Program-made: the position numbers and the translations under genes | Shown: positions 9,879 to 59,110 of the stretch, piece by piece | How positions within the stretch are numbered: position 1 is the stretch's first letter | Layout: every line of letters begins with the position of its first letter | Notes under the pieces: generated by a model | What the model saw: the letters and a program-made list of their open reading frames with translations, nothing else | Database searches by the model: none | What the model was told of the DNA's origin: nothing | Virus record (IMG/VR): IMGVR_UViG_3300043603_000010 | Location: 1 to 64,000 of that record | Strand: one strand, 5' to 3' | Source of the DNA: a virus | Taxonomy: Duplodnaviria > Caudoviricetes | DNA: 64,000 nt

Positions 9879-9885
9879 GGACCCC

Positions 9886-10025: not shown

Positions 10026-10035
10026 ACACAAGCTT

Positions 10036-10176
10036 CCCGCAGGTGCGACAGAAGATCCTTACTTCCCTCTGGAGGACGTGGTTGCGGGTTCGAGTCCCGC
10101 CAGCTGGCCCAACACGTCAGCTGTAGCTCAACTGGCAGAGCGCGTACGTCAGGATCATCGCCTTGACCTCTGCGGG
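10036..10176 (+). ncRNA. YrlA-like Y RNA unit 2
   Basis: T-arm GCGGG-TTCGAGT-CCCGC, stem CAGCTGG/TCAGCTG, D-arm GCTC-AACTGGCA-GAGC; closing CCCGCAG/CTGCGGG and GATCCT/AGGATC. Confidence 0.85.
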
Positions 10177-10194
10177 TCACAACTGAATACGCAC

Positions 10195-10267
10195 CTCCCG
10201 GTGCGAAGGCAAATCGGGTACGTCTCGGTAAAAGAAACCCCCGGACCGCCGTTACTGATCTCGGGAG
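10195..10267 (+). ncRNA. Short Y-RNA-like unit 3 (no tRNA-like domain)
   Basis: CTCCCG/CGGGAG closing stem with the same GGTGCG and ACTGATCT motifs. Confidence 0.65.
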
Positions 10268-10281
10268 GCCACAGCATCGGT

Positions 10282-10383
10282 ACCTGGTGCGCAGTGGACG
10301 GTTCCTTCGGTTCGAATCCGGAGCACTCTCCCCGAAAGGGTCGGGGTGTTCGGCGTAAACCGTCCGCGCTACTGATCTCGGGT
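10282..10383 (+). ncRNA. Y-RNA-like unit 4 (T-loop present, D-arm absent)
   Basis: GGTGCG 5' motif, GGACGGTT/AACCGTCC stem, GG-TTCGAAT-CC, CCC-GAAA-GGG, ACTGATCT 3' motif. Confidence 0.7.
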
Positions 10384-10424
10384 CCACTGCTCAGCCTCCC
10401 TCCGACCGAGTGGAGGCTTTTCCC

Positions 10425-12044
10425 TTGTCCAAGTTCAACAGCCCGACGGCGCGCCCGACGGCGCGCCAGCCCGTGACCACGACCGGGCCCGCCACCACGT
10501 ACGAGGGCGGAGCGGGGTTCGCCCGCGATACCCGGTCCGACCTGGTTCTGCTCGCCGTGACCAACATGGTCGGTGAGCAGACCTTCTACGAGAGCGGCAG
10601 CGACCGGGACACCAGGTACGCCGGTCTGGTCCGCGCCTGCGCGGTCAGCGACCCGCAGTGGACCCTGGACTTCCTGCGCTGGCTGCGCGGTGAGGCCAAC
10701 ATGCGCTCCGCCTCCCTGGTCGGCGCGGCGGAGTTCGTCAAGGGCCGCCTGGAGGCCGTGGCCGCCGGGGACCTGGTGCCCGACATCAGGGCGGAGAACA
10801 CCCAGGTCGGGGGCTGGAACCGCAAGGCGGTGGACGCGGTGCTCCAGCGGGCCGACGAGCCCGGCGAGTTCCTCGCCTACTGGACGTCGCACTACGGCCG
10901 CAGGCTGCCCCAGCCGGTCAAGCGCGGTGTGGCGGACGCGGTCCGGCGACTGTACACGGAGCGGTCCCTGCTGAAGTACGACACGGCCAGTCACGGCTAC
11001 CGCTTCGCCGACGTGATCGACCTGGTGCACCCGGGTCCGGCGTCCGAAAAGCCGTACCAGGGCGACCTGTTCGTCCACGCCCTGGACCGACGTCACGGCC
11101 ACGCCGACAGCATCCCGGAGCGCCTGCTCAAGATCCGAGCCAACGCGTCGCTGCGCAGCTCGGACAACCTGTCGGCATGGTTGAACCCGCAGACACTGGA
11201 CGCCGCAGGGATGACCTGGGAGGACGCCCTGTCCGCCGTCGGGTCCAAGGTCGACAAGGCCGCGCTGTGGTCCGCCATGATCCCGTCCATGGGGATCATG
11301 GCGCTGATCCGCAACCTGCGGAACTTCGATGAGTCCGGAGTCACGGACGCGGTGGCCACCAAGGTCTGCGCCCGGCTGATGGACCCTGCGGAGATCGCCC
11401 GGTCCCGCCAGTTCCCGTTCCGGTTCCTGTCGGCGTACCGCGCCGCTCCGTCGCTGCGCTGGGGCTACGCCCTGGACACCGCGCTCACCCTGGCGACGTC
11501 CAACATCCCGGCGCTGCCCGGCCGCACCCTGGTCATGGTCGACACGTCCGCGTCGATGCAGGGCGCCGTGTCCGCCAAGAGCACGATCCGGCACGTGGAC
11601 GTCGGCGCGCTGTTCGGCGTGGCGCTGGCGGCCCGGGGCAGCCAGGTGGACCTGGTGGGGTTCGCCGACGGGGTGTTCCCCCACCCGCTGCGGAAGGGTG
11701 GTTCGGTGCTCGCGCAGACCGAGGCGTTCACCCGGCGGGTCGGGGAGGTCGGCCACGGCACCAACACAGTCGGCGCTCTCCGGGCCGCGTACAGCGGCCA
11801 CGACCGGGTGGTGATCCTGCACGACGGGCAGTACGGCAGCTTCGCTCTCAACTGGCCGCAGCTGTCCACCGTGCTGGCGCCGGGCGTCCCGCTGTTCAGC
11901 ATCGACACGACCGGCTACCAGGCCGCGCCGGTGGATGCCTCGCAGCCGAACCGGTACGAGATCGGCGGGTTCTCGGACAAGCTGTTCACGATGGTGAGTC
12001 TGCTCAGCCGGGGACGGGACGCCGGTTGGCCGTGGGAGGGGTAG
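10425..12044 (+). CDS. rsr: Ro60/TROVE-domain RNA-binding protein with C-terminal vWA domain
   Basis: SKFN...TTYEGGAGF...LAVTNMVGEQTFYE...EANMRS...MGIMALIRNLRN...QFPFRFLSAY...LVMVDTSASM (MIDAS); TTG start after GGAGG. Confidence 0.93.
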   Translation: MSKFNSPTARPTARQPVTTTGPATTYEGGAGFARDTRSDLVLLAVTNMVGEQTFYESGSDRDTRYAGLVRACAVSDPQWTLDFLRWLRGEANMRSASLVGAAEFVKGRLEAVAAGDLVPDIRAENTQVGGWNRKAVDAVLQRADEPGEFLAYWTSHYGRRLPQPVKRGVADAVRRLYTERSLLKYDTASHGYRFADVIDLVHPGPASEKPYQGDLFVHALDRRHGHADSIPERLLKIRANASLRSSDNLSAWLNPQTLDAAGMTWEDALSAVGSKVDKAALWSAMIPSMGIMALIRNLRNFDESGVTDAVATKVCARLMDPAEIARSRQFPFRFLSAYRAAPSLRWGYALDTALTLATSNIPALPGRTLVMVDTSASMQGAVSAKSTIRHVDVGALFGVALAARGSQVDLVGFADGVFPHPLRKGGSVLAQTEAFTRRVGEVGHGTNTVGALRAAYSGHDRVVILHDGQYGSFALNWPQLSTVLAPGVPLFSIDTTGYQAAPVDASQPNRYEIGGFSDKLFTMVSLLSRGRDAGWPWEG

Positions 12045-42478: not shown

Positions 42479-42675
42479 GTCTGTGCCTCCGCCCATGTCA
42501 CGATTGCCGCGTACTGGTCGGCGATCTGCTGTGCGTGCTCGACCTGACGGTCCAGCGTCTCCTTGTCGAGCAGGGAGAACGGGCCGTCCCTGTCGGATTC
42601 GTACTGCGCCAGCGCCAGGTCCGCCTGTGCGAGGGAGTAGCGCAGCTCCGCCAGGACCACACCGTCGATCTTCAT
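42475..42675 (-). CDS. Small hypothetical protein
   Basis: Coupled; MKIDGVVLAELRY resembles 43430-43810 MKISELVLADLRM. Confidence 0.55.
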   Translation of the reverse strand: MKIDGVVLAELRYSLAQADLALAQYESDRDGPFSLLDKETLDRQVEHAQQIADQYAAIVTWAEAQT

Positions 42676-42863
42676 CGACGCCCCTCCTTCCAGCAGTCGG
42701 AGCAGATGTCCCTGCCGTTCTTCGTCCGGTGCCAGCCCGCCCGACGCGCCTGACGTCGTGCCTCGGCTTTGGTTCCGGCATCCGGGATCGACCCGGAGTC
42801 AAACGGACCCTCGTCATGCTCGGGTACGTCGCAGAACAGGAACGCTCGTAGATAGACCGTCAC
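42672..42863 (-). CDS. Small Zn-binding protein, paralog A
   Basis: FCD...GWHRTKNGRDICSDCWKEGRR. Confidence 0.6.
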   Translation of the reverse strand: MTVYLRAFLFCDVPEHDEGPFDSGSIPDAGTKAEARRQARRAGWHRTKNGRDICSDCWKEGRR

Positions 42864-44953: not shown

Positions 44954-45301
44954 TCATCTCTCCTCATTCCTTGTCGGGTCTGAAAGGTTCTGCTCGCGCC
45001 AGTGCGCGATTCCGGACGCGTTCGCCCGGCGGCACTTGGGGCACGGAGGTTCACCGTTGCGCAGGTGCCTCCGGTAGGCGGTGCGGTCACCGCAGTCCTC
45101 GTACCAGCCGATCAGTCCGTGCAGCACGGCCAGGTGGACCGCGTGCACGGTGCTCCTGGCGTCCAGCTTCCGGATGGCCCGGTGCACGGCCATCCGGGTT
45201 CCCGCCTCGGTGGTTCCGAGCCGCTTGGCGGCCTGGTGGTTGGTGTCCCCGAGCGCCATGCGCTGGAGCGCGTCCGTCTCCCGCCGTGTCAGCGGTTTCA
45301 C
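44954..45301 (-). CDS. LuxR-type HTH protein with C-terminal Cys/His motif
   Basis: LTRRETDALQRMALGDTNHQAAKRLG...AIRKLDARS; CGDRTAYRRHLRNGEPPCPKCR. Confidence 0.75.
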   Translation of the reverse strand: MKPLTRRETDALQRMALGDTNHQAAKRLGTTEAGTRMAVHRAIRKLDARSTVHAVHLAVLHGLIGWYEDCGDRTAYRRHLRNGEPPCPKCRRANASGIAHWREQNLSDPTRNEER

Positions 45302-45837
45302 CGGACCGGGCCGGTCATCGTGTACGCGTCCGGGTGGAGTGGGCACCCGACGTGCCGGTCGGCGTGCATGTGCCGACGGCCGTCCGCCGCGCAGTGCGGA
45401 GAAGCGGGGCAGGTCGGCGAGCAGCGGCAGACCGCTCCGGCCGGGGGCTCGCGCCAGCCGGTCCATCCATGGTCGTCCTTGTCGGCGGTCCAGGCGGCCA
45501 GCGCGGCGGTGTCCGCTGCGCTCAGCGTCCCGATACCTCTGCCGCCTGACGCCGACTTCCAGCCGACCGAGACCGAGACGGTACCGGGGAACGGCGACCG
45601 CAGCCGGGCATAGTGCAGAGGGGTCTTGAACACCAGCTCCCGCAGGTGGTCAGTGCCCAGCCAGGTGCGCAGCTCGGTGAACTGCTCCCGCTCCAGCAGG
45701 AACGACGCCCCGCCCCCGATGGTCCGGTGGAACACACGCAGATCCGTGGTGCGGTCCAGCGGCTTCCGGTACCGGGGTCCGAGTTCGACCACCGTGCGAC
45801 CGTCGGCACAGCGTGCCTGGAATCCATCGATCTTCAT
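45298..45837 (-). CDS. Hypothetical protein
   Basis: GAGGAGAGAACG-ATG leader. Confidence 0.55.
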   Translation of the reverse strand: MKIDGFQARCADGRTVVELGPRYRKPLDRTTDLRVFHRTIGGGASFLLEREQFTELRTWLGTDHLRELVFKTPLHYARLRSPFPGTVSVSVGWKSASGGRGIGTLSAADTAALAAWTADKDDHGWTGWREPPAGAVCRCSPTCPASPHCAADGRRHMHADRHVGCPLHPDAYTMTGPVR

Positions 45838-45867
45838 CGTTCTCTCCTCGATCAAGTGGTGCTCGTG

Positions 45868-45940
45868 AGCCCCGAGCAGGTCTCGAACCTGCTGCCTGCT
45901 GATTACGAATCAGCTGCTCTACCGGATGAGCTACCGGGGC
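45868..45940 (-). tRNA. tRNA-Thr(CGT)
   Basis: GCCCCGG/TCGGGGC acceptor, GCTC/GAGC D-stem, GCTGA-TTCGTAA-TCAGC, GCAGG-TTCGAGA-CCTGC; no encoded CCA. Confidence 0.9.
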
Positions 45941-46010
45941 GGGAGGAGCTTTCTTCCAGAAGGACCGTCGCCGGGTATCTGGCCCGGCGGGGTACTCCCC
46001 GCCTTCTTCG

Positions 46011-46082
46011 CTCCCGCTCCGGGGCTCGAACCCGGCCAGCCGACGCCATGGACGCCTGCTGTCCTCCGGCAGTGGTGCGGGA
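46011..46082 (-). pseudogene. Degenerate tRNA-like element (CAT in loop)
   Basis: Good T-arm CCGGG-TTCGAGC-CCCGG, partial acceptor, weak D and anticodon arms, C33. Confidence 0.5.
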
Positions 46083-46112
46083 AGGTGCCCGGCCGGAGCC
46101 GGGCCGTACGGG

Positions 46113-46310
46113 TCAGACCTGGTCCTCCACCATGTGCTTCAGGTGCGCCTGGTCGGCGTCCCAGGCAGCGGCGTACTGGAGCGCCTCGCCCTCGCGGCAC
46201 ACGGCCACCGGGACGACGTCCCCGGTGCTCTCGTCCAGCTTGGCGGTACACCCGGTGTGCTCCACCAGGTGGCTCTCGAACTCGCGCTGGGTGCTCGGGT
46301 CTCCGAACAT
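46113..46310 (-). CDS. Small hypothetical protein
   Basis: AAGGAGAGAAGGA leader; MFGDPSTQREF. Confidence 0.55.
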   Translation of the reverse strand: MFGDPSTQREFESHLVEHTGCTAKLDESTGDVVPVAVCREGEALQYAAAWDADQAHLKHMVEDQV

Positions 46311-46345
46311 AGTGTCCTTCTCTCCTTTGTCGGGTGGTGCGTGCA

Positions 46346-46430
46346 GTGGCGGGCGGCGATTCGAACGCCGCACCCCTCGCCGGTCGCTCCTCTCCGGAGC
46401 TACTGGGTTCGGCTCTGCTCATGATCCGCC
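46346..46430 (-). ncRNA. tRNA-like element with T-arm and acceptor-like ends but atypical core
   Basis: GCGGCG-TTCGAAT-CGCCGC; GGCGG/CCGCC ends; no canonical anticodon arm. Confidence 0.4.
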
Positions 46431-46477
46431 AGTACAGATGCCTCTGTACTTCCAGCTGCCGGTGCGCACCGGCCGCG

Positions 46478-46549
46478 CTCCTCGCCGTGGATTCGAACCA
46501 CGATCAGCCACTCCAGGGGCGGCTGTCCTGCCGGTTGGACGAACGGGGA
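46478..46549 (-). tRNA. tRNA-Gln(CTG)-like, non-canonical (C33, acceptor mismatch)
   Basis: TCCCCGT/GCGAGGA, GTCC/GGAC, GCCGC-CCCTGGA-GTGGC, CGTGG-TTCGAAT-CCACG. Confidence 0.7.
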
Positions 46550-46619
46550 AGGTGTCCGGCCGGAGCCGGACCGTTCTTCGATCTCTTTCGCTCTTTTCCA
46601 TCTTACTGCGCACTTACGG

Positions 46620-46691
46620 TGGACGCAACGCGGGTCGAACGCGCATCCCGCCTCTTTTAAGGAGGCTGCTCTTCCGTTGAGCTATGCGCCC
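46620..46691 (-). tRNA. tRNA with UAA anticodon (nominally Leu, reads UUA) on a short-variable-loop body
   Basis: GGGCGCA/TGCGTCC-A73, GCTC-AACGGAA-GAGC, GCCTC-CTTAAAA-GAGGC, variable GGGAT, GCGCG-TTCGACC-CGCGT. Confidence 0.8.
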
Positions 46692-46697
46692 CCGGGG

Positions 46698-47405
46698 TCA
46701 GTCCTCCGGGACCTGTACAGGGGTGGCGAAGACACGGGTGTACGTGTTGATCGTGGGGTACTCCTCACTGCGGCCGTACACCTCCCAGCGCCGGGCCCTG
46801 GTCGCTTCTGCGACGGTACGCGCGAAGCCGGGGCCGATGCACACGGGTTCCCCGCCGTCGTCCGGCAGCACGCAGCGGCCGTTCTTCGTGAACGGTGCTC
46901 CGTCGACGTGGACGGAGACGACCACGCCACGACGGGCGGTGCCGCTGTCCGTCCAGCCGACCCACGATCCGGCCTCGAACGGCGCGGTGGCCGGACGCGG
47001 AACCGACCGCTTCTTGCGGGACCGCCTGACGTCGCGCACGACCGCTTCCGTCTCACCGGGGAAACTGGCCCGCAGCCGGGCGTACGCGCCGTCCTGGGGA
47101 CGCGCCTTCGGTCCGGTAAGGGCCAATTCGGCGTCCAGGTACCGGAGGCGTGCCTCACGCTCCTCCGCCTTCAGCACAGAGCGGGCTTCCAGGTCGACTC
47201 CGGGGCCGTAACCGGGATCCCGGGCCATTGCGGCGTAGTACTCCTCCTTGGCGTCGTCGCGGACCTTCTCCAGCCCGGCCAGGACGCCCGTGTAGCCGTC
47301 GCGCACGGCGGCGGTGACCGTCTTCGTGTGCGCGGCCTGCGTGCCTGATGTGGTGACTACGGTCTCCGCTCCAGCGAAGTGCAGCCTGGTGGTGTGCTCG
47401 GTCAT
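46698..47405 (-). CDS. Hypothetical protein
   Basis: GGAGGACGAC-ATG; SH3/KOW-like WVGW...RGVVV segment. Confidence 0.6.
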   Translation of the reverse strand: MTEHTTRLHFAGAETVVTTSGTQAAHTKTVTAAVRDGYTGVLAGLEKVRDDAKEEYYAAMARDPGYGPGVDLEARSVLKAEEREARLRYLDAELALTGPKARPQDGAYARLRASFPGETEAVVRDVRRSRKKRSVPRPATAPFEAGSWVGWTDSGTARRGVVVSVHVDGAPFTKNGRCVLPDDGGEPVCIGPGFARTVAEATRARRWEVYGRSEEYPTINTYTRVFATPVQVPED

Positions 47406-47860
47406 GTCGTCCTCCGTGCGGTGTGGTTGTACCAGGACACCGAGCGCGAGCAGGACCCGCAGCGGATCCACCGGCGCTTCGTCTGGGTGTTCTCGAACGA
47501 GACCGGCTGCGCGGGGTGCACCTCACGGGACCGCTGGAGGCAGTCCTGGCAGTCGTTGGCCTGCTCGTTGGGGCCCCGCAGCAGGAACGGCACGCCGTGC
47601 CCGCAGACGGCCGCCTGGGGGATGTCCCCGAACAGTCCGGGGAACTGCGCCCGGCCCGGGAACGCGGCACGGGCCGCCATCACGACGCCCTTGTAGCGGA
47701 ACCCGTCCAGGCCGTCGGCCAGGGCGCGGACGCGTTCCAGCGCGTCCAGCTCCCACTCCAGTTCCAGCCGTTCGAGCAGGACGCGCAGGGAGTCCTGCGT
47801 CTTCGGGTGCATGCCGTCCGCGAAGGACAGCAGGTCGTCACGTGCGGACATGGCTTTCAT
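47402..47860 (-). CDS. Hypothetical protein with Cys motifs
   Basis: GAGAGGAG RBS. Confidence 0.55.
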   Translation of the reverse strand: MKAMSARDDLLSFADGMHPKTQDSLRVLLERLELEWELDALERVRALADGLDGFRYKGVVMAARAAFPGRAQFPGLFGDIPQAAVCGHGVPFLLRGPNEQANDCQDCLQRSREVHPAQPVSFENTQTKRRWIRCGSCSRSVSWYNHTARRTT

Positions 47861-48419
47861 CTCCTCTCTCGGGGTGGGGCGCTCCGCACCCGTTGCAGGT
47901 GCAGCGCCCGGTGTCCTTGTCGCGGCACTTCGGGCAGCGGCAGTAGCAGAGCAGGAACCCGCGAGCGGGCCCGCAGTAGCTGGCGTGCTCCGGGGACAGC
48001 GGCGGGTGCTTGCGTGCGCCCTGCTCCACCAGGTCGACCAGCAGAGACGCCCGCCGCGCGGCGGTCCCCGGGTCCAGGCCTGCGTCCAGGTACGCCCGCA
48101 CCAGGTGGTCCACCACTGTGCGCCGCGCCGCTCGGCTGTCCTCCATGGCCTTCCTCCATCTGAGCATCCGCTGGTAGTCGTTCAGGGCGCGTCGGCAGCG
48201 TCGGCAGGGCGGGGTCCGCTCGCGCCGGTGGATCATCCATCCGGCGTAGCTGCCGCACTTCCCGCTGGTGCAGGCGGCTCGTGCCCGCAGGCAGTCCCCG
48301 CAGGGACGCTCGTTGCGGCGCCGGTGCCGCAGCCACCCGTCGTTGCTGCCGCAGTCCTTCAGGCCGATCCCCAGCATGCGGCGCTGGTCCTCCGTCCAGA
48401 CGACTCCGTGCCCGTTCAT
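47838..48419 (-). CDS. Protein with repeated CG-x-H-x-PC-x-C Zn motifs
   Basis: CGSNDGWLRH...PCGDC and CGSYAGWMIH...PCRRC; same motif as the 44954-45301 C-terminus. Confidence 0.65.
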   Translation of the reverse strand: MNGHGVVWTEDQRRMLGIGLKDCGSNDGWLRHRRRNERPCGDCLRARAACTSGKCGSYAGWMIHRRERTPPCRRCRRALNDYQRMLRWRKAMEDSRAARRTVVDHLVRAYLDAGLDPGTAARRASLLVDLVEQGARKHPPLSPEHASYCGPARGFLLCYCRCPKCRDKDTGRCTCNGCGAPHPERGDESHVRT

Positions 48420-48497
48420 TCGGCCTTCTCTCCTCGATCTGTTCAGGCGTACAGGACCGGGGTAGGCGTCCGGCAGTCAGCGCATCGGAGGTGCCCC

Positions 48498-48566
48498 GTG
48501 CTGGAGACCGTCCTGATCATCGTGCTCATCGTCGCCATCGTCCTGTTCGTCCTGCGACGGTTGTAG
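48498..48566 (+). CDS. 22-aa hydrophobic peptide on the opposite strand
   Basis: GGAGGT RBS; MLETVLIIVLIVAIVLFVLRRL. Confidence 0.6.
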   Translation: MLETVLIIVLIVAIVLFVLRRL

Positions 48567-48581
48567 CCGGTCGTCCCTGCG

Positions 48582-48653
48582 CACTCGCAGCCGGTCATGA
48601 TCCGGCATCTCCGCCTTGAAAGGGCGGCGGGCATCCGATTACCCCATGCGAGC
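48582..48653 (-). tRNA. tRNA-Glu(TTC)-like with atypical T-loop
   Basis: GCTCGCA/TGCGAGT-G73, GGGT/GCCC, CCGCC-CTTTCAA-GGCGG, GCCGG-ATCATGA-CCGGC. Confidence 0.7.
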
Positions 48654-48683
48654 GGGTGCCCGGCCGGAGCCGGGCGGGTGGTG

Positions 48684-49286
48684 CTACTTCTTGTGTGCGG
48701 AGAAGCTGAACGACGGTGCTCCGACCAGCTGGACCGACTTCGTGGCCGCGTCCCACTTGGCCGGGCCGAACACGGTCTGCACCGGACCCTCCCAGTAGTC
48801 GGCGTAGGGCTTGCCGTCGGCACCGACGCAGATCACGTAGGTCCCGGCGGAGTCGCCGGAGTAGACGCCGGTCGGGTCCATCTGCCCGACCGTGATGTTG
48901 CCGCCGTTCGACTCGCTGTGCCCGACCACCTGTTGCGGGTTGGTCAGCTGGTCGGTGGACGGGATCGGCGCACCGATCGACGGGCAGACCTGGATCGGCG
49001 CGTACCCGGCGGACCCGGAAGCGCCCATCGGGAAGAAGAACGTGGTGGTCTCGACACCCTGTGCCTGCGCGTTCTCCAGCTCGATCAGGTTCTGCCGGAG
49101 CTGGCTGTACGTGTAGCCCGGGATGCCCTGGTTGTTGATCAGAGTCCCGGAGTCGGTGGCCTGCTTGGACGACTCGACGTTGTTGGCGCTCGGCTTGCTG
49201 CTGCCGAAGCAGGCGGTCAACCCGAATGTGGCCAGCACGGCGACCGAGACGGCCACGGCGATACGCGACCCGGCGATGTTCCTCAT
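48684..49286 (-). CDS. Lipoprotein
   Basis: Signal peptide with LTAC lipobox. Confidence 0.75.
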   Translation of the reverse strand: MRNIAGSRIAVAVSVAVLATFGLTACFGSSKPSANNVESSKQATDSGTLINNQGIPGYTYSQLRQNLIELENAQAQGVETTTFFFPMGASGSAGYAPIQVCPSIGAPIPSTDQLTNPQQVVGHSESNGGNITVGQMDPTGVYSGDSAGTYVICVGADGKPYADYWEGPVQTVFGPAKWDAATKSVQLVGAPSFSFSAHKK

Positions 49287-49300
49287 GCGGCGGTTCCCCT

Positions 49301-49684
49301 TCACTTGGCGGACCCTGCGGAGCAGTGGTCAGCGACGTACGCGGCCTGGTCGGTCGGCAGCGGATCGCCGGTGACCTGGTCCGCGTCCTGGCAGACGATG
49401 TTGACGAGTGCCTTCTGCTGCGCCTTCAGCGCTGCCGTCTCCGCTGCGTCCCCGGAGACCTCGGTGATCTGCGTCCCGATGGCCTGCGCGTCAGCGATCT
49501 TGTTCGTGATCTGCTCGCGCAGGGTCTGCTGGTTGCTGTAGCCGTTGCGGACCAGGTGCGCGTCCCGGGCGGCGTTCTGACCGGCGAACCACCATCCGGC
49601 CTGCCAGCCCCCCAGGACGATCCCGGTGACGATGGCAGCGGCCAGCAGGACGCCGAGGACACCTCTGGTCATTGCTGTGAACAC
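49301..49684 (-). CDS. Single-TM protein with coiled coil
   Basis: GAGAGGAGAGCAT-GTG leader; N-terminal TM. Confidence 0.65.
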   Translation of the reverse strand: MFTAMTRGVLGVLLAAAIVTGIVLGGWQAGWWFAGQNAARDAHLVRNGYSNQQTLREQITNKIADAQAIGTQITEVSGDAAETAALKAQQKALVNIVCQDADQVTGDPLPTDQAAYVADHCSAGSAK

Positions 49685-49711
49685 ATGCTCTCCTCTCACT
49701 CGGTGTGTGCG

Positions 49712-49784
49712 TGCGCCCGGCAGGGGTCGAACCTGCGCGCTCCGGGGCTTCACTCCGGTGCTCTGCCAGCTGAGCTACGGACGC
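49712..49784 (-). tRNA. tRNA-Phe(GAA)-like
   Basis: GCGTCCG/CGGGCGC-A, GCTC-AGCTGGCA-GAGC, CCGGA-GTGAAGC-CCCGG (A-C mismatch, G32), GCAGG-TTCGACC-CCTGC. Confidence 0.75.
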
Positions 49785-49811
49785 GGGCGCCCCGGCGGTC
49801 CGGGGCCGTTC

Positions 49812-50240
49812 TCAGAACTCCGGCAGCGGCTGCACCGGCGGCAGCCAGGCGACCTCCACTCCGTCGGACTTGCGGACCCAGCGTTTGCCGGGGCCCTGCG
49901 ACCGGTACGGGTCAACGCTGTCGGCCAGGTGCGCCCGTGCGGGGTTGGCCACCAGGTCGGACCTGGGGCTCACCCGCAGCTCCTGCGCCACGGCGTGCCG
50001 GGTCAGTTCGTCGGCCCGCTTCAGCCGGACGGACAGTTCGGTGGCCACGGTGCAGGCGGTGGACGTCGCGTTGTTGACGTACGGCATCACCATCCGCGCG
50101 TCCTCCGCTCCCTTCTCCAACCACTGGCAGGCCTGGTTGACCGCCCGGCGCAGCTCGGTCGGTGTGGCCGCCTTGACGAAGGCTCTCAACCGATCCTCGA
50201 ACGCGTCGATATCGCCGATCCGTACGCTAGGTGCGTTCAT
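49812..50240 (-). CDS. Hypothetical protein
   Basis: GAGAGGAGAGCACG-ATG leader. Confidence 0.65.
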   Translation of the reverse strand: MNAPSVRIGDIDAFEDRLRAFVKAATPTELRRAVNQACQWLEKGAEDARMVMPYVNNATSTACTVATELSVRLKRADELTRHAVAQELRVSPRSDLVANPARAHLADSVDPYRSQGPGKRWVRKSDGVEVAWLPPVQPLPEF

Positions 50241-50252
50241 CGTGCTCTCCTC

Positions 50253-50525
50253 TCACTTCGGGTTCTGCCGGGCCACGCGCTGCATGAAGTCGATCGCGTT
50301 GACCAGGCTGACGCGCTGCTCCGGGGTGTCGGTCCCGGTGATGTGCGTCACGTGCGGCACCCTGGCCATGTCGGTGTGGACCCGCCAGAACGGCCCTGCG
50401 CTCCCGTCGCGGAAGACGTCCGGGTAGTCGTAGACCAAGTGCGTCCGTGCGGCTTCGTGGACGCAGTCGGCATGGACGAACCCGGCTTGCGCCGCAGCCG
50501 CGTCCAGCATCTTCAGACTGGCCAT
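50253..50525 (-). CDS. Hypothetical protein
   Basis: GAGAGGAGAGCACG-ATG leader. Confidence 0.65.
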   Translation of the reverse strand: MASLKMLDAAAAQAGFVHADCVHEAARTHLVYDYPDVFRDGSAGPFWRVHTDMARVPHVTHITGTDTPEQRVSLVNAIDFMQRVARQNPK

Positions 50526-50553
50526 CGTGCTCTCCTCTCGATCGGTGTATGCG

Positions 50554-50636
50554 TGCGCCCGGCCGGACTCGAACCAGCACTGTCACCGACTGCCCTTACA
50601 GGCGTCGGCTGCCTCTGCCTATTGGGCTACGGACGC
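50554..50636 (-). tRNA. tRNA-like element (GTA/Tyr in loop) with extended anticodon arm
   Basis: Same acceptor as 49712-49784; D-arm GCCCAATAGGCAGAGGC; GCCGA-CGCCTGTAAGGGCAG-TCGGT; GCTGG-TTCGAGT-CCGGC. Confidence 0.6.
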
Positions 50637-50663
50637 GGGTGCCCGGCCGGAGCCGGGCCGTTC

Positions 50664-51101
50664 TCAGGACCGGCCGATCCGCACCGTGTTGGGTGCCTGC
50701 GGCTTGACGTACAGGACGTTGATCCCGCTGACTTCCAGCTGGCCGTCCTTCATCTTCACCTCGAACCCCTCTGCCGGACCCGAGTCCGCGTCCCGGAACT
50801 CCACCGTGACACCGTGGCCCAGAGGGCGGACATCCTTGCCCGGGTCGTCACCCCAGCCCCCGTCACTGACGGCGGAGGTGGACAGCCACAGGAAGGTGTC
50901 GCTGTCGGCGGGTCCCTCGTTCAGCAGGGCACGGGCCGCGTCCACCTCTTCGGCCGCCTTCTCCGCAGTGCGGAGCCTGGACGCCTCTGCACTGCGGAGC
51001 CGGACGTCCAGGACGGCAACCAGCTGCTGCACCCATGCAGGCTGCTTGGCCAGCCTGGGGTCCTTGGCCTTCTCGTGCAGCTGCTCGTTGGTCATCGTCA
51101 T
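50664..51101 (-). CDS. Hypothetical protein
   Basis: GAGAGGAGAGCACG-ATG leader. Confidence 0.65.
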   Translation of the reverse strand: MTMTNEQLHEKAKDPRLAKQPAWVQQLVAVLDVRLRSAEASRLRTAEKAAEEVDAARALLNEGPADSDTFLWLSTSAVSDGGWGDDPGKDVRPLGHGVTVEFRDADSGPAEGFEVKMKDGQLEVSGINVLYVKPQAPNTVRIGRS

Positions 51102-51128
51102 CGTGCTCTCCTCTCGGTCGGTCGTGCG

Positions 51129-51199
51129 CACCCCCGGCCGGTCATGATCCGGCACTTCCGCCTTGAGGGGGCGGCGAGCATCCGTTACTCAACGGGGGC
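51129..51199 (-). tRNA. tRNA-Glu(CTC)-like, C33 and atypical T-loop
   Basis: GCCCCCG/CGGGGGT-G, GAGT/GCTC, CCGCC-CCCTCAA-GGCGG, GCCGG-ATCATGA-CCGGC. Confidence 0.65.
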
Positions 51200-51230
51200 G
51201 GGTGCCCGGCCAGGCCGGGCTGTTCGGTGG

Positions 51231-51452
51231 TCACGGCTCCAGGCACTCCTCCGAGACCTCGAATGCGGAGAAGGCGACCACGTGCAGGTCCGCCGGATAG
51301 ACGCCCTTCTCCTTGGCCCATTCCTGGAGCATGAGCCTCTCAGTCTGGTCCTCGGAGAAGACGTCGACCGCGTCCCCGGTGATCGTCCACTTGCCGGAGA
51401 CGAGACCGAAGGAGTGTGCTTCCACCAGGGCGACGTACGCGTACCTGGCCAC
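51231..51452 (-). CDS. Small hypothetical protein
   Basis: 73-aa ORF with GAAGGG RBS. Confidence 0.55.
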   Translation of the reverse strand: MARYAYVALVEAHSFGLVSGKWTITGDAVDVFSEDQTERLMLQEWAKEKGVYPADLHVVAFSAFEVSEECLEP

Positions 51453-51454
51453 GG

Positions 51455-51700
51455 CTACCGCCCTTCCGGCTTCAGCAGGGACACCCGGACGTCCGTGTCC
51501 GTGCCGGGGTACGGCGCGAGCAGGGAATCCGTACGCAGATGGACACCGAGCCGGGCACCGGCAGCCATGCCCGGCAGGCTCAGCACTTCCCAGCGGGCCG
51601 CCTGCAACAGCGCGTTGCGGTTGTCGAGCGCGGTCAGCGTCAGGAACATGCGCTCTTCCTCGGTCGGCTCCGCCACCAGGTCGAACAGGGTCCTGGTCAT
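51455..51700 (-). CDS. Small hypothetical protein
   Basis: GAGGAGAGAACG-ATG leader. Confidence 0.6.
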   Translation of the reverse strand: MTRTLFDLVAEPTEEERMFLTLTALDNRNALLQAARWEVLSLPGMAAGARLGVHLRTDSLLAPYPGTDTDVRVSLLKPEGR

Positions 51701-51733
51701 CGTTCTCTCCTCGGTCGTCGGATCGTACGTGCG

Positions 51734-51816
51734 TTCCCCGCCGTGGACTCGAACCACGATCGCCGAAGCACCGGAACCAGCCGGGTACGGTCTGTCCGCC
51801 GGTCGGACAGCAGGGA
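51734..51816 (-). ncRNA. tRNA-like element with 8-nt anticodon-position loop and long variable arm
   Basis: TCCCTGC/GCGGGGA acceptor, TCC/GGA D-stem, GACCG-TACCCGGC-TGGTT, CGTGG-TTCGAGT-CCACG. Confidence 0.55.
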
Positions 51817-51862
51817 TGGTGCCAGCCGGGCAGGGTTCGTCACACCCCCTGCCCGGCCGGGT

Positions 51863-52063
51863 CTAGTGGAGGACCATCGCGAGAAGGAACGCCGTCATGA
51901 AACCGATGACGACGATGGCGGTCGGTAGGCCTGGATGGTCGGAGACGGACAGGAAGCCGTCCGTGATCTCGTCCAGGACGGACCGCCGTGGCTTCTCCGG
52001 TCCGACGCGCTTCGGGTCGTACCGACGGGATGGCCCGTTGCGGACGTACAGCCCGGCGTTCAC
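51863..52063 (-). CDS. Small C-terminal TM protein
   Basis: 66 aa with C-terminal hydrophobic helix. Confidence 0.5.
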   Translation of the reverse strand: MNAGLYVRNGPSRRYDPKRVGPEKPRRSVLDEITDGFLSVSDHPGLPTAIVVIGFMTAFLLAMVLH

Positions 52064-52196
52064 AGGCTCAGCAGCCAGAGCAGCAGGGGGTACATCATCG
52101 CGCAGATGATCAGGCTGAACGCCAGCTCCACCACGGTCTGCGCCGCGTTGGACCGGGAGGCGAACCTCCCGATTACGTCCACGATCCGCCCGGCGT

Positions 52197-52373
52197 TCAC
52201 CGCGCGTGGGTCAGGTCGTACCGGACCCGGCGGGGAGCGCCGGAGACGAACGCCAGGGCCCGCTCCTGCGCCCGTTGCGGGCTGACGTAGGAGGCGAAGA
52301 CCCGGCGGACCGGCCTGCCGTCACTGCCGGTGTAGGCCACCTGAACGCAGTGGCGGGTGTTGATCGTGCTCAT
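52197..52373 (-). CDS. Small hypothetical protein
   Basis: GAGAGGAGAACGGCC-ATG leader. Confidence 0.55.
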   Translation of the reverse strand: MSTINTRHCVQVAYTGSDGRPVRRVFASYVSPQRAQERALAFVSGAPRRVRYDLTHAR

Positions 52374-52449
52374 GGCCGTTCTCCTCTCGGTCGGACTGAG
52401 TGCCCGTGGCCGGGGAACGGACCGCAGTCCGCTTCCCGCCATGCTGTAC

Positions 52450-52845
52450 TCAGCTCCCTGCGCGGTACTTCTCGATCGCCTCGGCAACCGCCAGCACCAG
52501 TCCGCCATTGTCCAAGCGACCGGACAGCTGCTGCTGGAGCCCAGCCGCGTGGATAACCTCCCACGCCGCCTCTACACGCCGGTCGTACGCCAGCTGATCA
52601 CTGGTGAGCAGTTTCGGGGAGTACCCGACGTACCGGTTGCTCAGGTCGAAGTAGAGGCCCGTGGACAGTACGAACTGCCAGTCGAACGGGTACCGGCTGT
52701 CCCGGATCTCCGTCACGGTGGCGTACTTCCGTCCGATCTTGGTCACGGTCACCGGAACCGGCTCCGGAGCCTTACGGCCGGACTGTCCGGGCAGGACCAG
52801 CAGTTCCATGCCGACGGACAGCGTCGGCATCTCGGGTCGCTCCAT
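52450..52845 (-). CDS. Small beta-barrel (SH3-like) hypothetical protein
   Basis: LSVGMELLV...VTVTKIGRKYATV; AAGGAG RBS. Confidence 0.6.
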   Translation of the reverse strand: MERPEMPTLSVGMELLVLPGQSGRKAPEPVPVTVTKIGRKYATVTEIRDSRYPFDWQFVLSTGLYFDLSNRYVGYSPKLLTSDQLAYDRRVEAAWEVIHAAGLQQQLSGRLDNGGLVLAVAEAIEKYRAGS

Positions 52846-52975
52846 GATCTTCGTCCCTCTCCTTGGTCGTTGTTCAGCTGGGGTGGGCGGGTTTCTTTCA
52901 GCCGTACCTTCACCGGCACCACGGCCCCGTCTGGCGGGTACCGGCCGGTTTCTGAGTACCGCCCACGGCCTTCAC

Positions 52976-53025
52976 GTGCTCCCCGGTGCCTTGACGGCGT
53001 ACGGCGGATCCCGCCGGGGAGCTGG
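52976..53025 (-). repeat. About 50-bp structured intergenic repeat, copy 1 (others 56149-56198, 57724-57765)
   Basis: GTGCTCCCCGGTGCCTTGACGGCGTACGGCGGATCCCGCCGGGGA shared with 56149. Confidence 0.9.
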
Positions 53026-54292: not shown

Positions 54293-54507
54293 GGGCGCTC
54301 ACCGGGTTCTCCGGCTCTCCCGCCCACCTCCCGCCTTAGCCTTCTCAGGGGCCTTATCTCGGGGGTGTCCGGTGGTCTGGCACCGGCACCTTGTTCTGTT
54401 GTTTCGCGTTCTTTGGTACATCTCTAATGTACTTCGCAGAGATGCGCTTGTCAAACTTTCCGCAACGCTCTGACGTGCAACGTTGAAGATTCTTTGAGAA
54501 AGTCTCC
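54293..54507 (-). promoter_or_regulatory. Repeated strong leftward promoter plus leader, copy 1
   Basis: Minus strand TTGACA (54454-49), 17 nt, TACATT (54431-26); TACAT-TAGAG-ATGTA palindrome. Confidence 0.85.
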
Positions 54508-57803: not shown

Positions 57804-58008
57804 TGCCGGGTTCTCCGGCTCTCCCGTCCCTCCCGGTCTTAGCCTTCTCAGGGGCCCTATCTCCGGGATGTCCGACGGTCTGGCGTCGGCGCCTTTGCAG
57901 TTGTTTCGCGTTCTTTGGTACATCTCTAATGTACTGCGCATCTCTGCGCTTGTCAAACGTTACGCAGTTCTCTGACGTGCATCTTCGTAGATTCTTTTAG
58001 AGAATCTC
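57804..58008 (-). promoter_or_regulatory. Repeated leftward promoter plus leader, copy 2
   Basis: TTGACA (57956-51), 17 nt, TACATT (57933-28). Confidence 0.85.
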
Positions 58009-58901: not shown

Positions 58902-59110
58902 GGGCGCCCACCGGGTTCTCCGGCTCTCCGCCCCTCCGAGTCTTAGCCTTCTCAGGGGCCTTATCTCTCGGATGTCCGGTGGTCTGGCACCGGCACCTTG
59001 TCCTGTTGTTTCGCGTTCTTTGGTACATCTCTAATGTACTGCGCAGAGATGCGCTTGTCAAACAGTACGGAGCTCTCTGACGTGCAGTTATAGAAATTAT
59101 TTGAGGAAGT
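58902..59110 (-). promoter_or_regulatory. Repeated leftward promoter plus leader, copy 3
   Basis: TTGACA (59061-56), 17 nt, TACATT (59038-33). Confidence 0.85.

What the first reader, a model, noticed from the sequence alone, without database searches (positions are those of the whole stretch)
45868..51816. Ten dispersed tRNA or tRNA-like elements, mostly non-canonical, built as repeated hairpin-tRNA-leader-gene cassettes
Seen: minus-strand cloverleaves or partial cloverleaves at 45868, 46011, 46346, 46478, 46620, 48582, 49712, 50554, 51129 and 51734. Only Thr(CGT) and the UAA one have fully canonical anticodon arms and T-loops; the others have C33, stem mismatches, odd T-loops or enlarged anticodon arms, and none encodes a full CCA. 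Six are immediately preceded by the same hairpin, GCCCGGC-TCCG-GCCGGGC-AC or variants (about 46085, 46552, 48656, 49787, 50639, 51202). Several are followed within about 30 nt by the GAGAGGAGAG leader of the next gene. Inference: they may serve as RNase P/Z processing punctuation or stabilisers of early mRNAs, as nuclease-resistant tRNAs, or as decoys against host anticodon nucleases or tRNA-sensing defences, rather than as ordinary codon supplements.
Basis: partly seen in the sequence, partly recalled or inferred. Interest (0 to 1): 0.82.

Follow-up and report, generated by a model that had tools for sequence, protein, structure and literature searches.

The report
tRNA and tRNA-like punctuation array
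A soil actinomycete phage carries ten tRNA-shaped elements between small genes, most just after a hairpin; about half look like working tRNAs and the rest have lost a usable anticodon arm, so they probably also mark where host tRNA-trimming enzymes cut the long phage message.

Summary
All ten elements are real, all lie on the minus strand at 45868-51816, and all keep an acceptor stem and T-arm. Chance gives about 0.9 such hits per genome. Six pass Rfam's tRNA threshold and ARAGORN calls seven.

Seven elements sit 4-5 nt behind a GC hairpin. They lie 25-35 nt ahead of a strong ribosome-binding site. The same layout recurs, with different hairpin sequences, in about 27 of 32 tRNA-like elements of related phages.

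These are not neutral pseudogenes. The Glu-type family pairs in 294 of 294 cells, with 10 of 21 pairs showing compensatory changes. Change is concentrated in the anticodon arm:
- U33/C33 differs among close relatives on two stem backgrounds.
- In two relatives the loop is closed into a stem.
- Two window elements are remodelled copies of the Phe and Gln cassettes.
- Complete relatives of 93-98 kb carry no ordinary tRNA set, only such tRNA-likes.

The missing CCA is normal for Streptomyces-type hosts.

Best reading (about 0.5): a polycistronic transcript cut by RNase P and RNase Z at tRNA or tRNA-like marks. This would leave hairpin-capped upstream mRNAs, and the canonical members would also decode. 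No RNA data exist.

This scan has noted tRNA-mimic punctuation in other phages before. I class this as a new variant of a known kind.

The parts
51822..51860 (-). 14-bp hairpin that follows the stop codon of the upstream gene and ends 5 nt before the next element
   Evidence: RNAfold of the upstream 45 nt gives dG -33.4 kcal/mol; sequence
51734..51816 (-). 84-nt tRNA-like element. It is a remodelled paralogue of the Gln cassette, with 7/7 acceptor pairs, a canonical T-arm, an 8-nt 'anticodon' loop and an extra arm. Probably not a decoder
   Evidence: Found by ARAGORN only at a relaxed threshold and by the minihelix scan; no Rfam hit; alignment to the Gln module
51204..51220 (-). 7-bp all-GC hairpin followed by an ACCC spacer
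51129..51199 (-). tRNA-Glu(CUC)-type element with C33 and a T-loop of AUCAUGA (A54, U58). Its acceptor and anticodon stems match those of host tRNA-Glu(CUC)
   Evidence: ARAGORN; the MFE fold is a cloverleaf, z -2.36; family covariation; host comparison
50641..50658 (-). 7-bp all-GC hairpin with a UCCG tetraloop, followed by an ACCC spacer
50554..50636 (-). tRNA-like paralogue of the Phe cassette. The anticodon arm is replaced by a stem of about 10 bp capped by a GUAA tetraloop, so there is no anticodon
   Evidence: Rfam 35.1 bits; fold; module 75% identical to the Phe module, with near-identical flanks
49789..49806 (-). 7-bp all-GC hairpin followed by a GCCC spacer
49712..49784 (-). tRNA-Phe(GAA) with A31.C39 and G32, a trait shared with other actinophage tRNA-Phe genes
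   Evidence: Rfam 54.7 bits; comparison with R4, Shady and Aegeus
48658..48675 (-). 7-bp all-GC hairpin with a UCCG tetraloop, followed by an ACCC spacer
48582..48653 (-). tRNA-Glu(UUC) with a canonical anticodon arm and the variant T-loop AUCAUGA
   Evidence: Rfam 50.8 bits; orthologue in L050 with compensatory changes
46620..46691 (-). Type I (short variable loop) tRNA with anticodon UAA. It carries G3.U70 and A73 and has no upstream GC hairpin
   Evidence: Rfam 57.2 bits; ARAGORN structure; orthologue in L050 lacks G3.U70
46554..46571 (-). 7-bp hairpin with a UCCG tetraloop, followed by an ACCT spacer
46478..46549 (-). tRNA-Gln(CUG) with C33, one C.A acceptor mismatch, and U1-A72/G73 kept
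   Evidence: Rfam 37.7 bits; ARAGORN; Shady tRNA-Gln has U33
46432..46450 (-). AT-richer hairpin that abuts the next element
46346..46431 (-). Degenerate tRNA-like element with a 6-bp acceptor stem and a perfect T-arm (loop TTCGAAT) but an irregular centre
   Evidence: Minihelix scan; fold; no ARAGORN or Rfam call
46087..46104 (-). 7-bp all-GC hairpin with a UCCG tetraloop, followed by an ACCT spacer
46011..46082 (-). Weak cloverleaf carrying CAU with C33; 6/7 acceptor pairs and a canonical T-arm. Its MFE fold is not a cloverleaf
   Evidence: Found by ARAGORN only at the ps80 threshold and by the minihelix scan; fold; no Rfam hit
45868..45940 (-). Canonical tRNA-Thr(CGU)
   Evidence: Rfam 62 bits; fold z -4.31
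54426..54454 (-). Nearest upstream sigma-70-like promoter (TTGACA-17-TACATT). It is the likely start of the transcript that runs through the array
   Evidence: three such promoters at 59061, 57956 and 54454, and none between 54426 and 45700

Best explanation
The array mixes working phage tRNA genes with decoding-incompetent tRNA-like paralogues. The likely working genes are Thr-CGU, the UAA tRNA, Phe-GAA, Glu-UUC, Gln-CUG and perhaps Glu-CUC. The likely non-decoders are 50554, 51734, 46346 and probably 46011.

All ten are embedded in one long leftward transcript, probably started at the promoter at 54454 or further upstream.

Proposed mechanism (inferred, not shown):
1. Host RNase P cuts at the 5' end of each tRNA-shaped unit.
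2. RNase Z cuts after the discriminator base. Both enzymes need only the acceptor/T-arm/elbow.
3. The upstream mRNA then ends in a very stable hairpin plus a 4-5 nt tail. By my recollection of E. coli work, that tail is too short for 3' exonucleases to load.
4. The downstream mRNA starts 25-35 nt before a strong Shine-Dalgarno sequence.

Because processing does not need an anticodon, duplicated copies can lose or remodel the anticodon arm while the rest stays under selection. The repeated stop-hairpin-tRNA-leader modules probably also act as homologous linkers at which gene cassettes are gained and lost.
For: Shown:
- Ten minihelix-bearing elements lie on one strand within 6 kb, against 0.9 expected per genome.
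- Seven of ten have a stable hairpin ending 4-5 nt upstream. So do about 27 of 32 tRNA-like elements in the wider phage group, including the tRNA-Phe of isolated phage R4 and (with a 2-nt spacer) the tRNA-Gln of Shady. The stem sequences differ, so the structure is what is kept.
- Six of the seven all-GC 7-bp tetraloop-type hairpins on the minus strand between 38 and 79 kb precede a tRNA-like element.
- The hairpins lack U-tracts, and no sigma-70-like promoter lies between 54426 and 45700. Downstream genes must therefore be read through the hairpins.
- The Glu-type family of 13 phage sequences plus the host gene pairs in 294/294 cells. Ten of 21 pairs carry double changes, 0 of 500 shuffles reach this, and slid controls pair in at most 50% of cells.
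- Change is confined to the anticodon arm. U33/C33 differs among relatives on two different stem backgrounds. The loop is closed to an ACAC-capped stem in the copy on a Streptomyces sp. 92-kb contig, and shortened to 5 nt in L078 and L200, while the rest is unchanged or nearly so.
- In the window, 50554 is a copy of the Phe module with near-identical flanks and acceptor stem but a GNRA-capped stem in place of the anticodon arm. 51734 is a remodelled Gln module.
- Complete relatives G008 (98 kb) and G009 (92.7 kb) have no ordinary tRNA set. Each has only the Glu-type element and two roughly 96-nt tRNA-likes with long arms.
- The genes flanking the conserved elements are not homologous between phages.
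- Codon need is weak: TTA occurs once in 21,774 codons.

From the literature: tRNA-like t-elements are proposed cleavage signals for RNase P and/or RNase Z at plant mitochondrial mRNA ends (PMC1920247).
Against: - There are no RNA data of any kind. No RNA run is listed for this DNA, so co-transcription, cleavage and stabilisation are all inferred.
- Hairpins of the same sequence occur between genes without any tRNA in other actinophage contigs. The hairpin therefore does not need a tRNA to work, and the juxtaposition could simply reflect where a tRNA fits in a short intergenic region.
- Two of the ten elements (Leu-UAA and Thr) lack the adjacent hairpin.
- The roughly 96-nt relatives have an invariant loop motif, which points to a trans-acting function rather than pure punctuation.
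- Phage-specific promoters would escape a sigma-70 consensus scan.
- RNase Z cleavage would leave a 5'-monophosphate on the downstream mRNA, which could shorten its life rather than lengthen it.
Confidence: 0.5

Rival explanations
1. This is an ordinary phage tRNA gene cluster for translation (codon supplementation or replacement of host tRNAs) with a few decaying duplicate copies. The hairpins are leaky terminators or generic 3' stabilisers of the preceding genes, and the layout has no role of its own.
For: - tRNAs interleaved with small ORFs are routine in isolated actinophages such as Aegeus and Shady.
- Six elements pass Rfam's tRNA threshold.
- The Glu, Gln and Phe elements keep identity marks: U13.G22 with a 4-nt variable loop for Glu, and U1-A72/G73 for Gln.
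- GAA makes up 23% of Glu codons.
- The set Glu-UUC, Glu-CUC, UAA and Phe is shared with the distant relative L050.
- The same hairpin occurs without a tRNA elsewhere.
Against: - Neutral decay should hit all arms alike. Instead the acceptor, D and T arms and the flanks are kept and only the anticodon arm is remodelled, into perfect stems capped by tetraloops. This happened in at least four separate cases.
- Complete relatives keep only tRNA-likes and a tRNA for GAG, the more used of the two Glu codons in this phage (799 GAG against 240 GAA), which the host gene cluster I sampled serves with three gene copies.
- TTA is used once in 21,774 codons.
- The hairpin-to-tRNA spacing is held at 4-5 nt across divergent phages.
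Confidence: 0.22
2. The elements are an anti-defence device. They would be tRNAs made insensitive to host tRNA-cleaving toxins (through C33, altered loops and an altered T-loop), and/or uncleavable or sacrificial tRNA-shaped decoys that soak up host tRNA-targeting enzymes.
For: - The phage Glu-CUC and Gln-CUG differ from the host or related-phage versions at position 33, where U becomes C.
- U33/C33 differs among relatives on two different stem backgrounds.
- In the T-loop, four of seven positions differ from the host while U55, C56 and R57 are kept. This holds in every member found, across at least 12 phage contigs.
- A published hypothesis holds that phage tRNAs escape anticodon nucleases through anticodon-loop mutations (PMC10264068).
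Against: - No host nuclease aimed at tRNA-Glu or tRNA-Gln, or at the T-loop, is known to me or was found here.
- Copies without an anticodon cannot restore translation.
- An anticodon-nuclease decoy would need the loop that these copies have lost.
- This reading does not explain the fixed hairpin spacing or the position in front of ribosome-binding sites.
Confidence: 0.15
3. The anticodon-less members are trans-acting non-coding RNAs. They would use a tRNA body for processing, CCA addition and stability, and carry a new functional arm.
For: - The roughly 96-nt family in relatives keeps an invariant loop (CCUUGGUCGGUUCC) on a covarying stem.
- A second 96-nt family in G008 and G009 stands apart from the hairpin/ribosome-binding-site layout.
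- This phage also encodes Ro60 with YrlA-like tRNA mimics.
Against: - The arms of the window's own elements (50554, 51734) match no relative, and no target is evident.
- Ro/TROVE is absent from three complete relatives that keep the tRNA-likes.
Confidence: 0.1

Closest known systems
Phage-encoded tRNA gene clusters of actinobacteriophages (for example Mycobacterium phage Aegeus and Streptomyces phages Shady and R4)
   Same: Both have tRNA genes on one strand interleaved with small ORFs. The tRNA-Phe lineage with A31.C39 is shared. R4 tRNA-Phe (5-nt spacer) and Shady tRNA-Gln (2-nt spacer) are also preceded by a hairpin.
   Different: Here four of the ten elements lack a usable anticodon arm. 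Complete relatives carry only tRNA-likes. The hairpin spacer is regular, and a variant T-loop (A54/U58) is fixed in a whole family.
t-elements of plant mitochondria and the mitochondrial tRNA-punctuation model (Forner et al. 2007, PMC1920247)
   Same: In both, tRNA-like folds at mRNA borders are proposed as cis signals for RNase P and/or RNase Z, and both real tRNAs and degenerate mimics are used.
   Different: This is a bacterial virus using host enzymes. The elements are full-length four-arm tRNA shapes rather than partial mimics. A stable hairpin is placed 4-5 nt upstream. Cleavage has not been shown here.
MALAT1/MEN-beta 3'-end formation by the tRNA-like mascRNA (from my own knowledge: Wilusz et al. 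2008)
   Same: Both have a stabilising RNA structure immediately upstream of a tRNA-like element. RNase P cleavage would create a protected 3' end.
   Different: MALAT1 is a eukaryotic nuclear lncRNA with a triple helix rather than a simple hairpin, and there is no downstream cistron. Rfam's mascRNA model gave only a chance-level hit elsewhere in the window.
Anticodon-loop-mutated phage tRNAs proposed to resist host anticodon nucleases (van den Berg et al. 2023, PMC10264068)
   Same: The phage tRNAs differ from the host's in the anticodon loop: U33 becomes C in Glu-CUC and Gln-CUG, and Phe has G32.
   Different: No matching host nuclease is known. The variation includes complete loss of the loop and a changed T-loop, which that model does not cover.
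Bacterial Y RNA-like YrlA tRNA mimics (Chen et al. 2014, PMC4201824; Rfam RF02553)
   Same: Both are tRNA-shaped non-decoding RNAs, and this same phage has Ro60 plus YrlA-like modules at 9922-10146.
   Different: The topology is opposite: YrlA has its ends in the Ro-binding stem, while these elements have them at the acceptor stem. There is no YrlA hit in the array, and Ro is absent from relatives that keep the elements.

Membership tests
tRNA (Rfam RF00005) | Cloverleaf scoring at or above the gathering score of 29 bits | tested here: inconclusive
   Met by 6 of 10 elements: 62, 57.2, 54.7, 50.8, 37.7 and 35.1 bits. Elements 51129, 51734, 46346 and 46011 are not reported. ARAGORN at default settings adds 51129.
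tRNA (functional decoder) | A 7-nt anticodon loop with U33 on a 5-bp stem | tested here: inconclusive
   Met by Thr, the UAA tRNA, Glu-UUC and Phe (the last with A31.C39). C33 is present in Glu-CUC, Gln-CUG and 46011. There is no such loop in 50554 (GNRA-capped stem), 51734 (8-nt loop) or 46346.
tRNA (functional decoder) | Canonical T-loop with U54, U55, C56, R57 and A58 | tested here: inconclusive
   Eight elements have TTCGANN. The two Glu elements have AUCAUGA, with A54 and U58. The host tRNA-Glu has TTCGAAT.
tRNA (functional decoder) | Aminoacylation and use on the ribosome | not testable with these tools
   This needs charging assays or tRNA-seq. The only indirect data are retained identity marks (U13.G22 and a 4-nt variable loop for Glu; U1-A72 for Gln) and G3.U70 on the UAA tRNA.
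tRNA punctuation / t-element-type processing signals | A tRNA-like fold placed between cistrons of one transcript | tested here: met
   Every element lies between a stop codon and the next Shine-Dalgarno sequence and start codon, or beside another element, on the coding strand. No sigma-70-like promoter or U-tract terminator lies inside the array. Co-transcription itself is inferred.
tRNA punctuation / t-element-type processing signals | The acceptor/T-arm (the part RNase P and RNase Z recognise) is conserved independently of the anticodon domain | tested here: met
   All ten elements keep the minihelix. Remodelling is confined to the anticodon arm in at least four cases.
tRNA punctuation / t-element-type processing signals | RNA ends generated at the element borders by RNase P and RNase Z | not testable with these tools
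   No RNA run is listed for this DNA. This needs end-mapping or in vitro cleavage.
Intrinsic (Rho-independent) terminator | A GC-rich hairpin followed by a U-tract | tested here: not met
   The seven hairpins are followed by ACCC, ACCT, GCCC or CACCA and then the tRNA. The consensus scan lists none of them.
YrlA / Y RNA-like (RF02553) | A match to the covariance model, with ends in a Ro-binding stem | tested here: not met
   There is no YrlA match in 45000-53000 at E up to 10. The sub-threshold YrlA hits lie at 9922-10146, next to the Ro gene.
Nuclease-resistant phage tRNAs (van den Berg 2023 hypothesis) | An anticodon-loop difference from the host tRNA at a known host tRNase cleavage or recognition site | tested here: inconclusive
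   The difference from the host is shown for Glu-CUC (U33C). For Gln it is shown only against another phage. No cognate host tRNase is known or was tested.

The most novel reading that the evidence does not exclude
A widespread group of 60-98 kb actinomycete phages has turned tRNA genes into dedicated mRNA punctuation marks. These would be full tRNA shapes that host RNase P and RNase Z cut out, each paired with an upstream hairpin that caps the released mRNA. The window would catch the transition in progress, running from working tRNA through a C33 variant to an anticodon-less copy. The fixed A54/U58 T-loop of the Glu-type family would mark a tRNA body that is kept for processing or for a non-ribosomal use rather than for decoding.
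Probability: 0.3. Interest if true: 0.75.

Novelty: new variant of a known kind. Interest (0 to 1): 0.6.

Why it matters
If it is confirmed, the array would show bacterial viruses using the host's tRNA-maturation enzymes to cut polycistronic messages into separately stabilised mRNAs. That is the logic known from mitochondria and from MALAT1. It would also explain why many phage 'tRNAs' look defective and why codon usage often fails to account for them.

It offers a natural, compact insulator design (hairpin, 4-5 nt, tRNA, leader with ribosome-binding site) for synthetic operons in Streptomyces.

The Glu-type family gives a concrete test case. It has a conserved swap of T-loop positions 54 and 58 and a labile anticodon loop, so it can be used to ask which parts of a tRNA are needed for which function.

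If the ordinary reading is right instead, the practical lesson is that tRNA annotators under-call and mis-call such elements in actinophage genomes.

Tried and rejected
- Near-identity search of the region against GenBank phages gave only a 40-nt chance-size hit. The distant mode gave only tRNA-level matches.
- The search for related loci with single proteins (the DUF7239 protein and the epimerase) found no relatives. A two-sequence profile of the conserved downstream gene added only one contig (G003), which has no tRNAs.
- The hairpin pattern scan found the same hairpin in three contigs without any tRNA.
Almost all were chance coding matches, and only L160 and L200 are real tRNA-likes.
- Rfam does not report 51129, 51734, 46346 or 46011 even in short-window searches. 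There is no YrlA hit in the array.
- The genes downstream of the Glu-type element in the window and in L061 are not homologous, so I dropped the idea of a conserved tRNA-gene pair.
- TROVE/Ro is absent from relatives G001, G002, G008 and G009, so I dropped the idea of a link between the array and Ro/Y RNA.
- The invariant loop motif of the relatives' 96-nt family is not present in the window.
- No RNA holder is listed for this DNA. The contigs laid on the region gave only DNA variants.
- The paper on the 54-58 reverse-Hoogsteen pair (PMC165963) is not held. A literature search found no paper that mentions U58 together with A54 in a tRNA T-loop.
- I considered and rejected three other readings. 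These are not integration (att) sites, because there are ten copies and no integrase beside them. They are not group I or archaeal-type introns in the enlarged arms, because the insertions are only 8-25 nt and form closed stems. They are not U-tract terminators.

Full report
**What the DNA is.** The window is bases 1-64000 of a 90,647-bp IMG/VR virus record rated complete, with about 69% G+C. Structural genes run rightward to about 38.5 kb. A long leftward block runs from about 78.8 kb down to 38.5 kb. No isolated phage is a close relative.

The host is probably Streptomyces or a near relative, on two grounds:
- A near-identical variant of one element lies on a 92-kb contig of a Streptomyces sp. 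assembly.
- The window's Glu-CUC element has the same acceptor and anticodon stems as Streptomyces tRNA-Glu(CUC).

**The observation.** ARAGORN at default settings calls seven minus-strand tRNAs between 45867 and 51199. The Rfam tRNA model passes six elements at its gathering score of 29 bits:

| Element | Bits |
|---|---|
| Thr | 62 |
| UAA | 57.2 |
| Phe | 54.7 |
| Glu-UUC | 50.8 |
| Gln | 37.7 |
| 84-nt element at 50554 | 35.1 |

Rfam does not report 51129, 51734, 46346 or 46011.

I wrote a scan for the part that RNase P, RNase Z and the CCA enzyme recognise. It looks for a 5-bp T-stem with G53-C61, a T-loop of the form [T/A]TC[G/A][A/T]NN, and an acceptor stem with at least 6 of 7 pairs. 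Markov shuffles of the genome give 0.9 hits on average. All ten elements are therefore real as tRNA-shaped units.

**Element by element.**
- Thr-CGU is canonical.
- The UAA tRNA is a clean type I cloverleaf with G3.U70 and A73.
- Phe-GAA has A31.C39 and G32.
- Glu-UUC has a normal anticodon arm, but its T-loop is AUCAUGA.
- Glu-CUC has the same T-loop plus C33.
- Gln-CUG has C33 and one acceptor mismatch.
- 50554 has, in place of an anticodon arm, a stem of about 10 bp capped by a GUAA tetraloop.
- 51734 has an 8-nt loop and an extra arm.
- 46346 and 46011 keep the acceptor and T-arm but have an irregular centre.

Twenty sampled Streptomyces tRNA genes also end 'N73-C, then not CA', so the missing CCA is the host's style. 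The A31.C39 arm of tRNA-Phe is shared by the tRNA-Phe genes of phages R4, Shady and Aegeus.

**The cassette layout.** Seven of the ten elements have a stable hairpin ending 4-5 nt before their first base. Six of these are perfect 7-bp GC stems, four of them with a UCCG tetraloop, and the seventh is a 14-bp stem. An eighth element (46346) abuts an AT-richer hairpin.

Of the seven all-GC 7-bp hairpins on the minus strand between 38 and 79 kb, six precede a tRNA-like element. None has a U-tract. The longer hairpins at 59160 and 58042, which precede promoters, look like real operon ends.

The spacer is ACCC, ACCT, GCCC or CACCA. After the discriminator comes a C, and 25-35 nt further on comes a strong Shine-Dalgarno sequence and a start codon. 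Three copies have exactly GAGAGGAGAG.

The only sigma-70-like promoters on this strand are at 59061, 57956 and 54454. None lies inside the array. The simplest reading is one transcript that reads through all the hairpins.

**Relatives.** An exact-pattern scan with the odd Glu T-arm found a distant relative. This is G001/G002, held as L050, with 40-58% protein identity in the few shared genes. In it the array occupies the same slot, between homologues of the genes at 53030 and 45298. The genes inside the slot are unrelated. The tRNA set partly recurs: Glu-CUC, Glu-UUC, UAA and Phe, plus a 91-nt element with a long arm instead of an anticodon arm.

Further scans found the Glu-type element in at least ten more phage contigs of 60-98 kb and in soil metagenome contigs. 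Everywhere the layout is the same: stop codon, hairpin, 4-5 nt, element, leader of 30-40 nt, Shine-Dalgarno sequence, start codon. The hairpin sequences differ while the stem is kept. About 27 of 32 elements have such a hairpin within 0-5 nt. This count includes the tRNA-Phe of isolated phage R4, with a 5-nt spacer.

**Selection.** I aligned 13 phage Glu-type sequences with the host gene. All 294 cells form standard pairs. Ten of 21 pairs show changes on both sides. None of 500 shuffles reaches these values, and slid controls pair in at most 50% of cells. These are not neutral pseudogenes.

The T-loop is AUCRUGA in every phage member and UUCGAAU in the host. Positions 54, 58, 59 and 60 differ, while U55, C56 and R57 are kept. 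I found no paper describing an A54/U58 tRNA T-loop.

What does vary is the anticodon loop:
- C33 and U33 each occur on both the CCGCC and the CCGGG stem backgrounds.
- In the copy on the Streptomyces sp. contig, the loop CCCUCAA has become CCACACGG, which closes into a 7-bp stem with an ACAC loop.
- In L078 and L200 the loop is 5 nt long.
- In all three, the rest of the molecule is identical or nearly so to its neighbours.

Inside the window the same pattern appears twice. The whole module of 50554, from stop codon to start codon, is 75% identical to the Phe module. The flanks and acceptor stem are near-identical, but the centre is replaced. 51734 is a remodelled Gln module.

The complete relatives G008 (98 kb) and G009 (92.7 kb) have no ordinary tRNA set at all. 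Each has the Glu-type element and two roughly 96-nt tRNA-likes with long arms. One family has an invariant loop on a covarying stem.

**Codon need.** In about 21,800 codons, TTA occurs once, in the primase-helicase gene. GAA makes up 23% of Glu codons. Supplementation could matter for Glu-UUC but hardly for the others. S. coelicolor LeuRS is reported to charge a type I tRNA-Leu (PMC6614811), so a short-armed UAA tRNA is not in itself aberrant. The G3.U70/A73 combination is not shared by the L050 orthologue.

**Mechanism.** The evidence fits a model in which the tRNA shape is a cis processing signal. What is conserved is the part that RNase P and RNase Z read. What is free to change is the part that only decoding and some synthetases need. 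The position is always intercistronic, and a stable hairpin sits as close upstream as a single-stranded leader for RNase P plausibly allows.

After RNase P cleavage, the upstream mRNA would end in a hairpin plus 4-5 nt. From my recollection of E. coli work, PNPase, RNase II and RNase R need longer single-stranded tails to engage. That step is inference from other organisms.

The canonical members probably still serve as tRNAs. None of this has been shown at the RNA level, and no RNA run is listed for this DNA.

Several points weigh against the model:
- The same hairpin occurs without a tRNA in other phages.
- Two elements lack the hairpin.
- The invariant loop of the relatives' 96-nt family suggests a trans-acting role for some members.

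**Cassette exchange.** The modules are similar to one another from stop codon to start codon, and the genes between them are not conserved between relatives. One low-depth soil contig, otherwise near-identical to the window, joins 50251 to 48682 through a 21-nt hairpin piece. It therefore lacks one gene and the whole Phe cassette. This is weak evidence (one contig, depth 2.4), but it fits the modules acting as recombination linkers.

**Comparison with what is known.**
- Phage tRNA clusters interleaved with ORFs are ordinary.
- Anticodon-loop variants of phage tRNAs have been proposed to resist host nucleases (PMC10264068).
- tRNA-like t-elements are proposed RNase P/Z signals at plant mitochondrial mRNA ends (PMC1920247).
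- MALAT1 uses a stabiliser followed by a tRNA-like element (my own knowledge).

What appears undescribed in print is this use in a bacterial virus, with full-length tRNA shapes, a fixed upstream hairpin, a family-wide 54/58 T-loop swap, and a visible series from working tRNA to anticodon-less copy.

Notes from this scan report tRNA-mimic punctuation in several other phages, including soil actinophages. They are unchecked AI notes and I do not count them as evidence.

**Verdict.** My confidences are:

| Reading | Confidence |
|---|---|
| tRNA/tRNA-like punctuation of a polycistronic message, with the canonical members also decoding | 0.5 |
| Plain tRNA cluster with decaying copies | 0.22 |
| Trans-acting RNAs | 0.1 |

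Noticed in passing
window 9860-12044 (+): A Ro60/TROVE gene lies at 10410-12044. It is 44% identical to 'Ro-like RNA binding protein' genes of Streptomyces phages and matches Pfam TROVE. It is preceded by at least two YrlA-like tRNA-mimic modules at 9922-9988 and 10076-10146 (30 and 39 bits, below the gathering score of 69). ARAGORN's 'tRNA-Gln' at 10036-10111 is part of this region and is not a tRNA.
   Followed up: partly
window 46620-46691 (-): The UAA-anticodon tRNA has G1-C72, G2-C71, G3.U70 and A73, which is the classical AlaRS identity set. The L050 orthologue lacks G3.U70. TTA occurs once in about 21,800 phage codons, in the primase-helicase gene at 79147-82149 of the genome.
   Followed up: partly
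window 48498-48566 (+): A small opposite-strand ORF of 22 strongly hydrophobic residues (VLETVLIIVLIVAIVLFVLRRL), with a GGAGG Shine-Dalgarno sequence 6 nt upstream of a GTG start. It lies in the 160-nt gap after tRNA-Glu(UUC), antisense to the leftward transcript. It looks like a type I toxin or a small membrane peptide.
   Followed up: no
window 59033-59061, 57928-57956, 54426-54454 (-): Three identical sigma-70-like promoters (TTGACA-17-TACATT). Each overlaps the same small hairpin GTACATTAGAGATGTAC and is followed by CCGGTG/CCGACG..CCAGAC stems. This looks like a repeated promoter-plus-leader-RNA unit upstream of the array.
   Followed up: partly
L061:4440-4535, L067:5770-5865 (-), L077:9404-9497 (-), L248:11635-11732: A family of tRNA-likes of about 96 nt in related phages. 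They have acceptor, D and T arms plus a long central arm whose loop CCUUGGUCGGUUCC is invariant while the stems covary. They are preceded by a hairpin and followed by a leader with a ribosome-binding site. The family is absent from the window.
   Followed up: partly
G008 51056-51151 (-), G009 42603-42698 (+): A second tRNA-like family of about 96 nt with a long arm. It is not in the hairpin/ribosome-binding-site layout and is followed by its own hairpin, so it may be a stand-alone ncRNA gene.
   Followed up: no
L058:250-330 (-) (brine metagenome contig): A tRNA-shaped element beside a tRNA cluster. It has the same T-arm (GCCGG-ATCATGA-CCGGC) and an anticodon arm closed by a 3-nt loop.
   Followed up: no
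window 48682-50251: One low-depth soil-metagenome contig, near-identical to the window, joins 50251 to 48682 through a 21-nt hairpin piece. It therefore lacks gene 49812-50240 and the Phe cassette with its two membrane/lipoprotein genes.
   Followed up: partly
genome 73376-76216 (-), beyond the window (L235:10376-13216): A ResIII/DEAD helicase gene with HINT/intein-splicing matches inside it, so it probably contains an intein.
   Followed up: no
window 48684-49286 and 49301-49672 (-): The two genes after tRNA-Phe encode a predicted lipoprotein (lipobox-like LTAC) and a membrane protein. No Pfam or PHROG family matches either.
   Followed up: no
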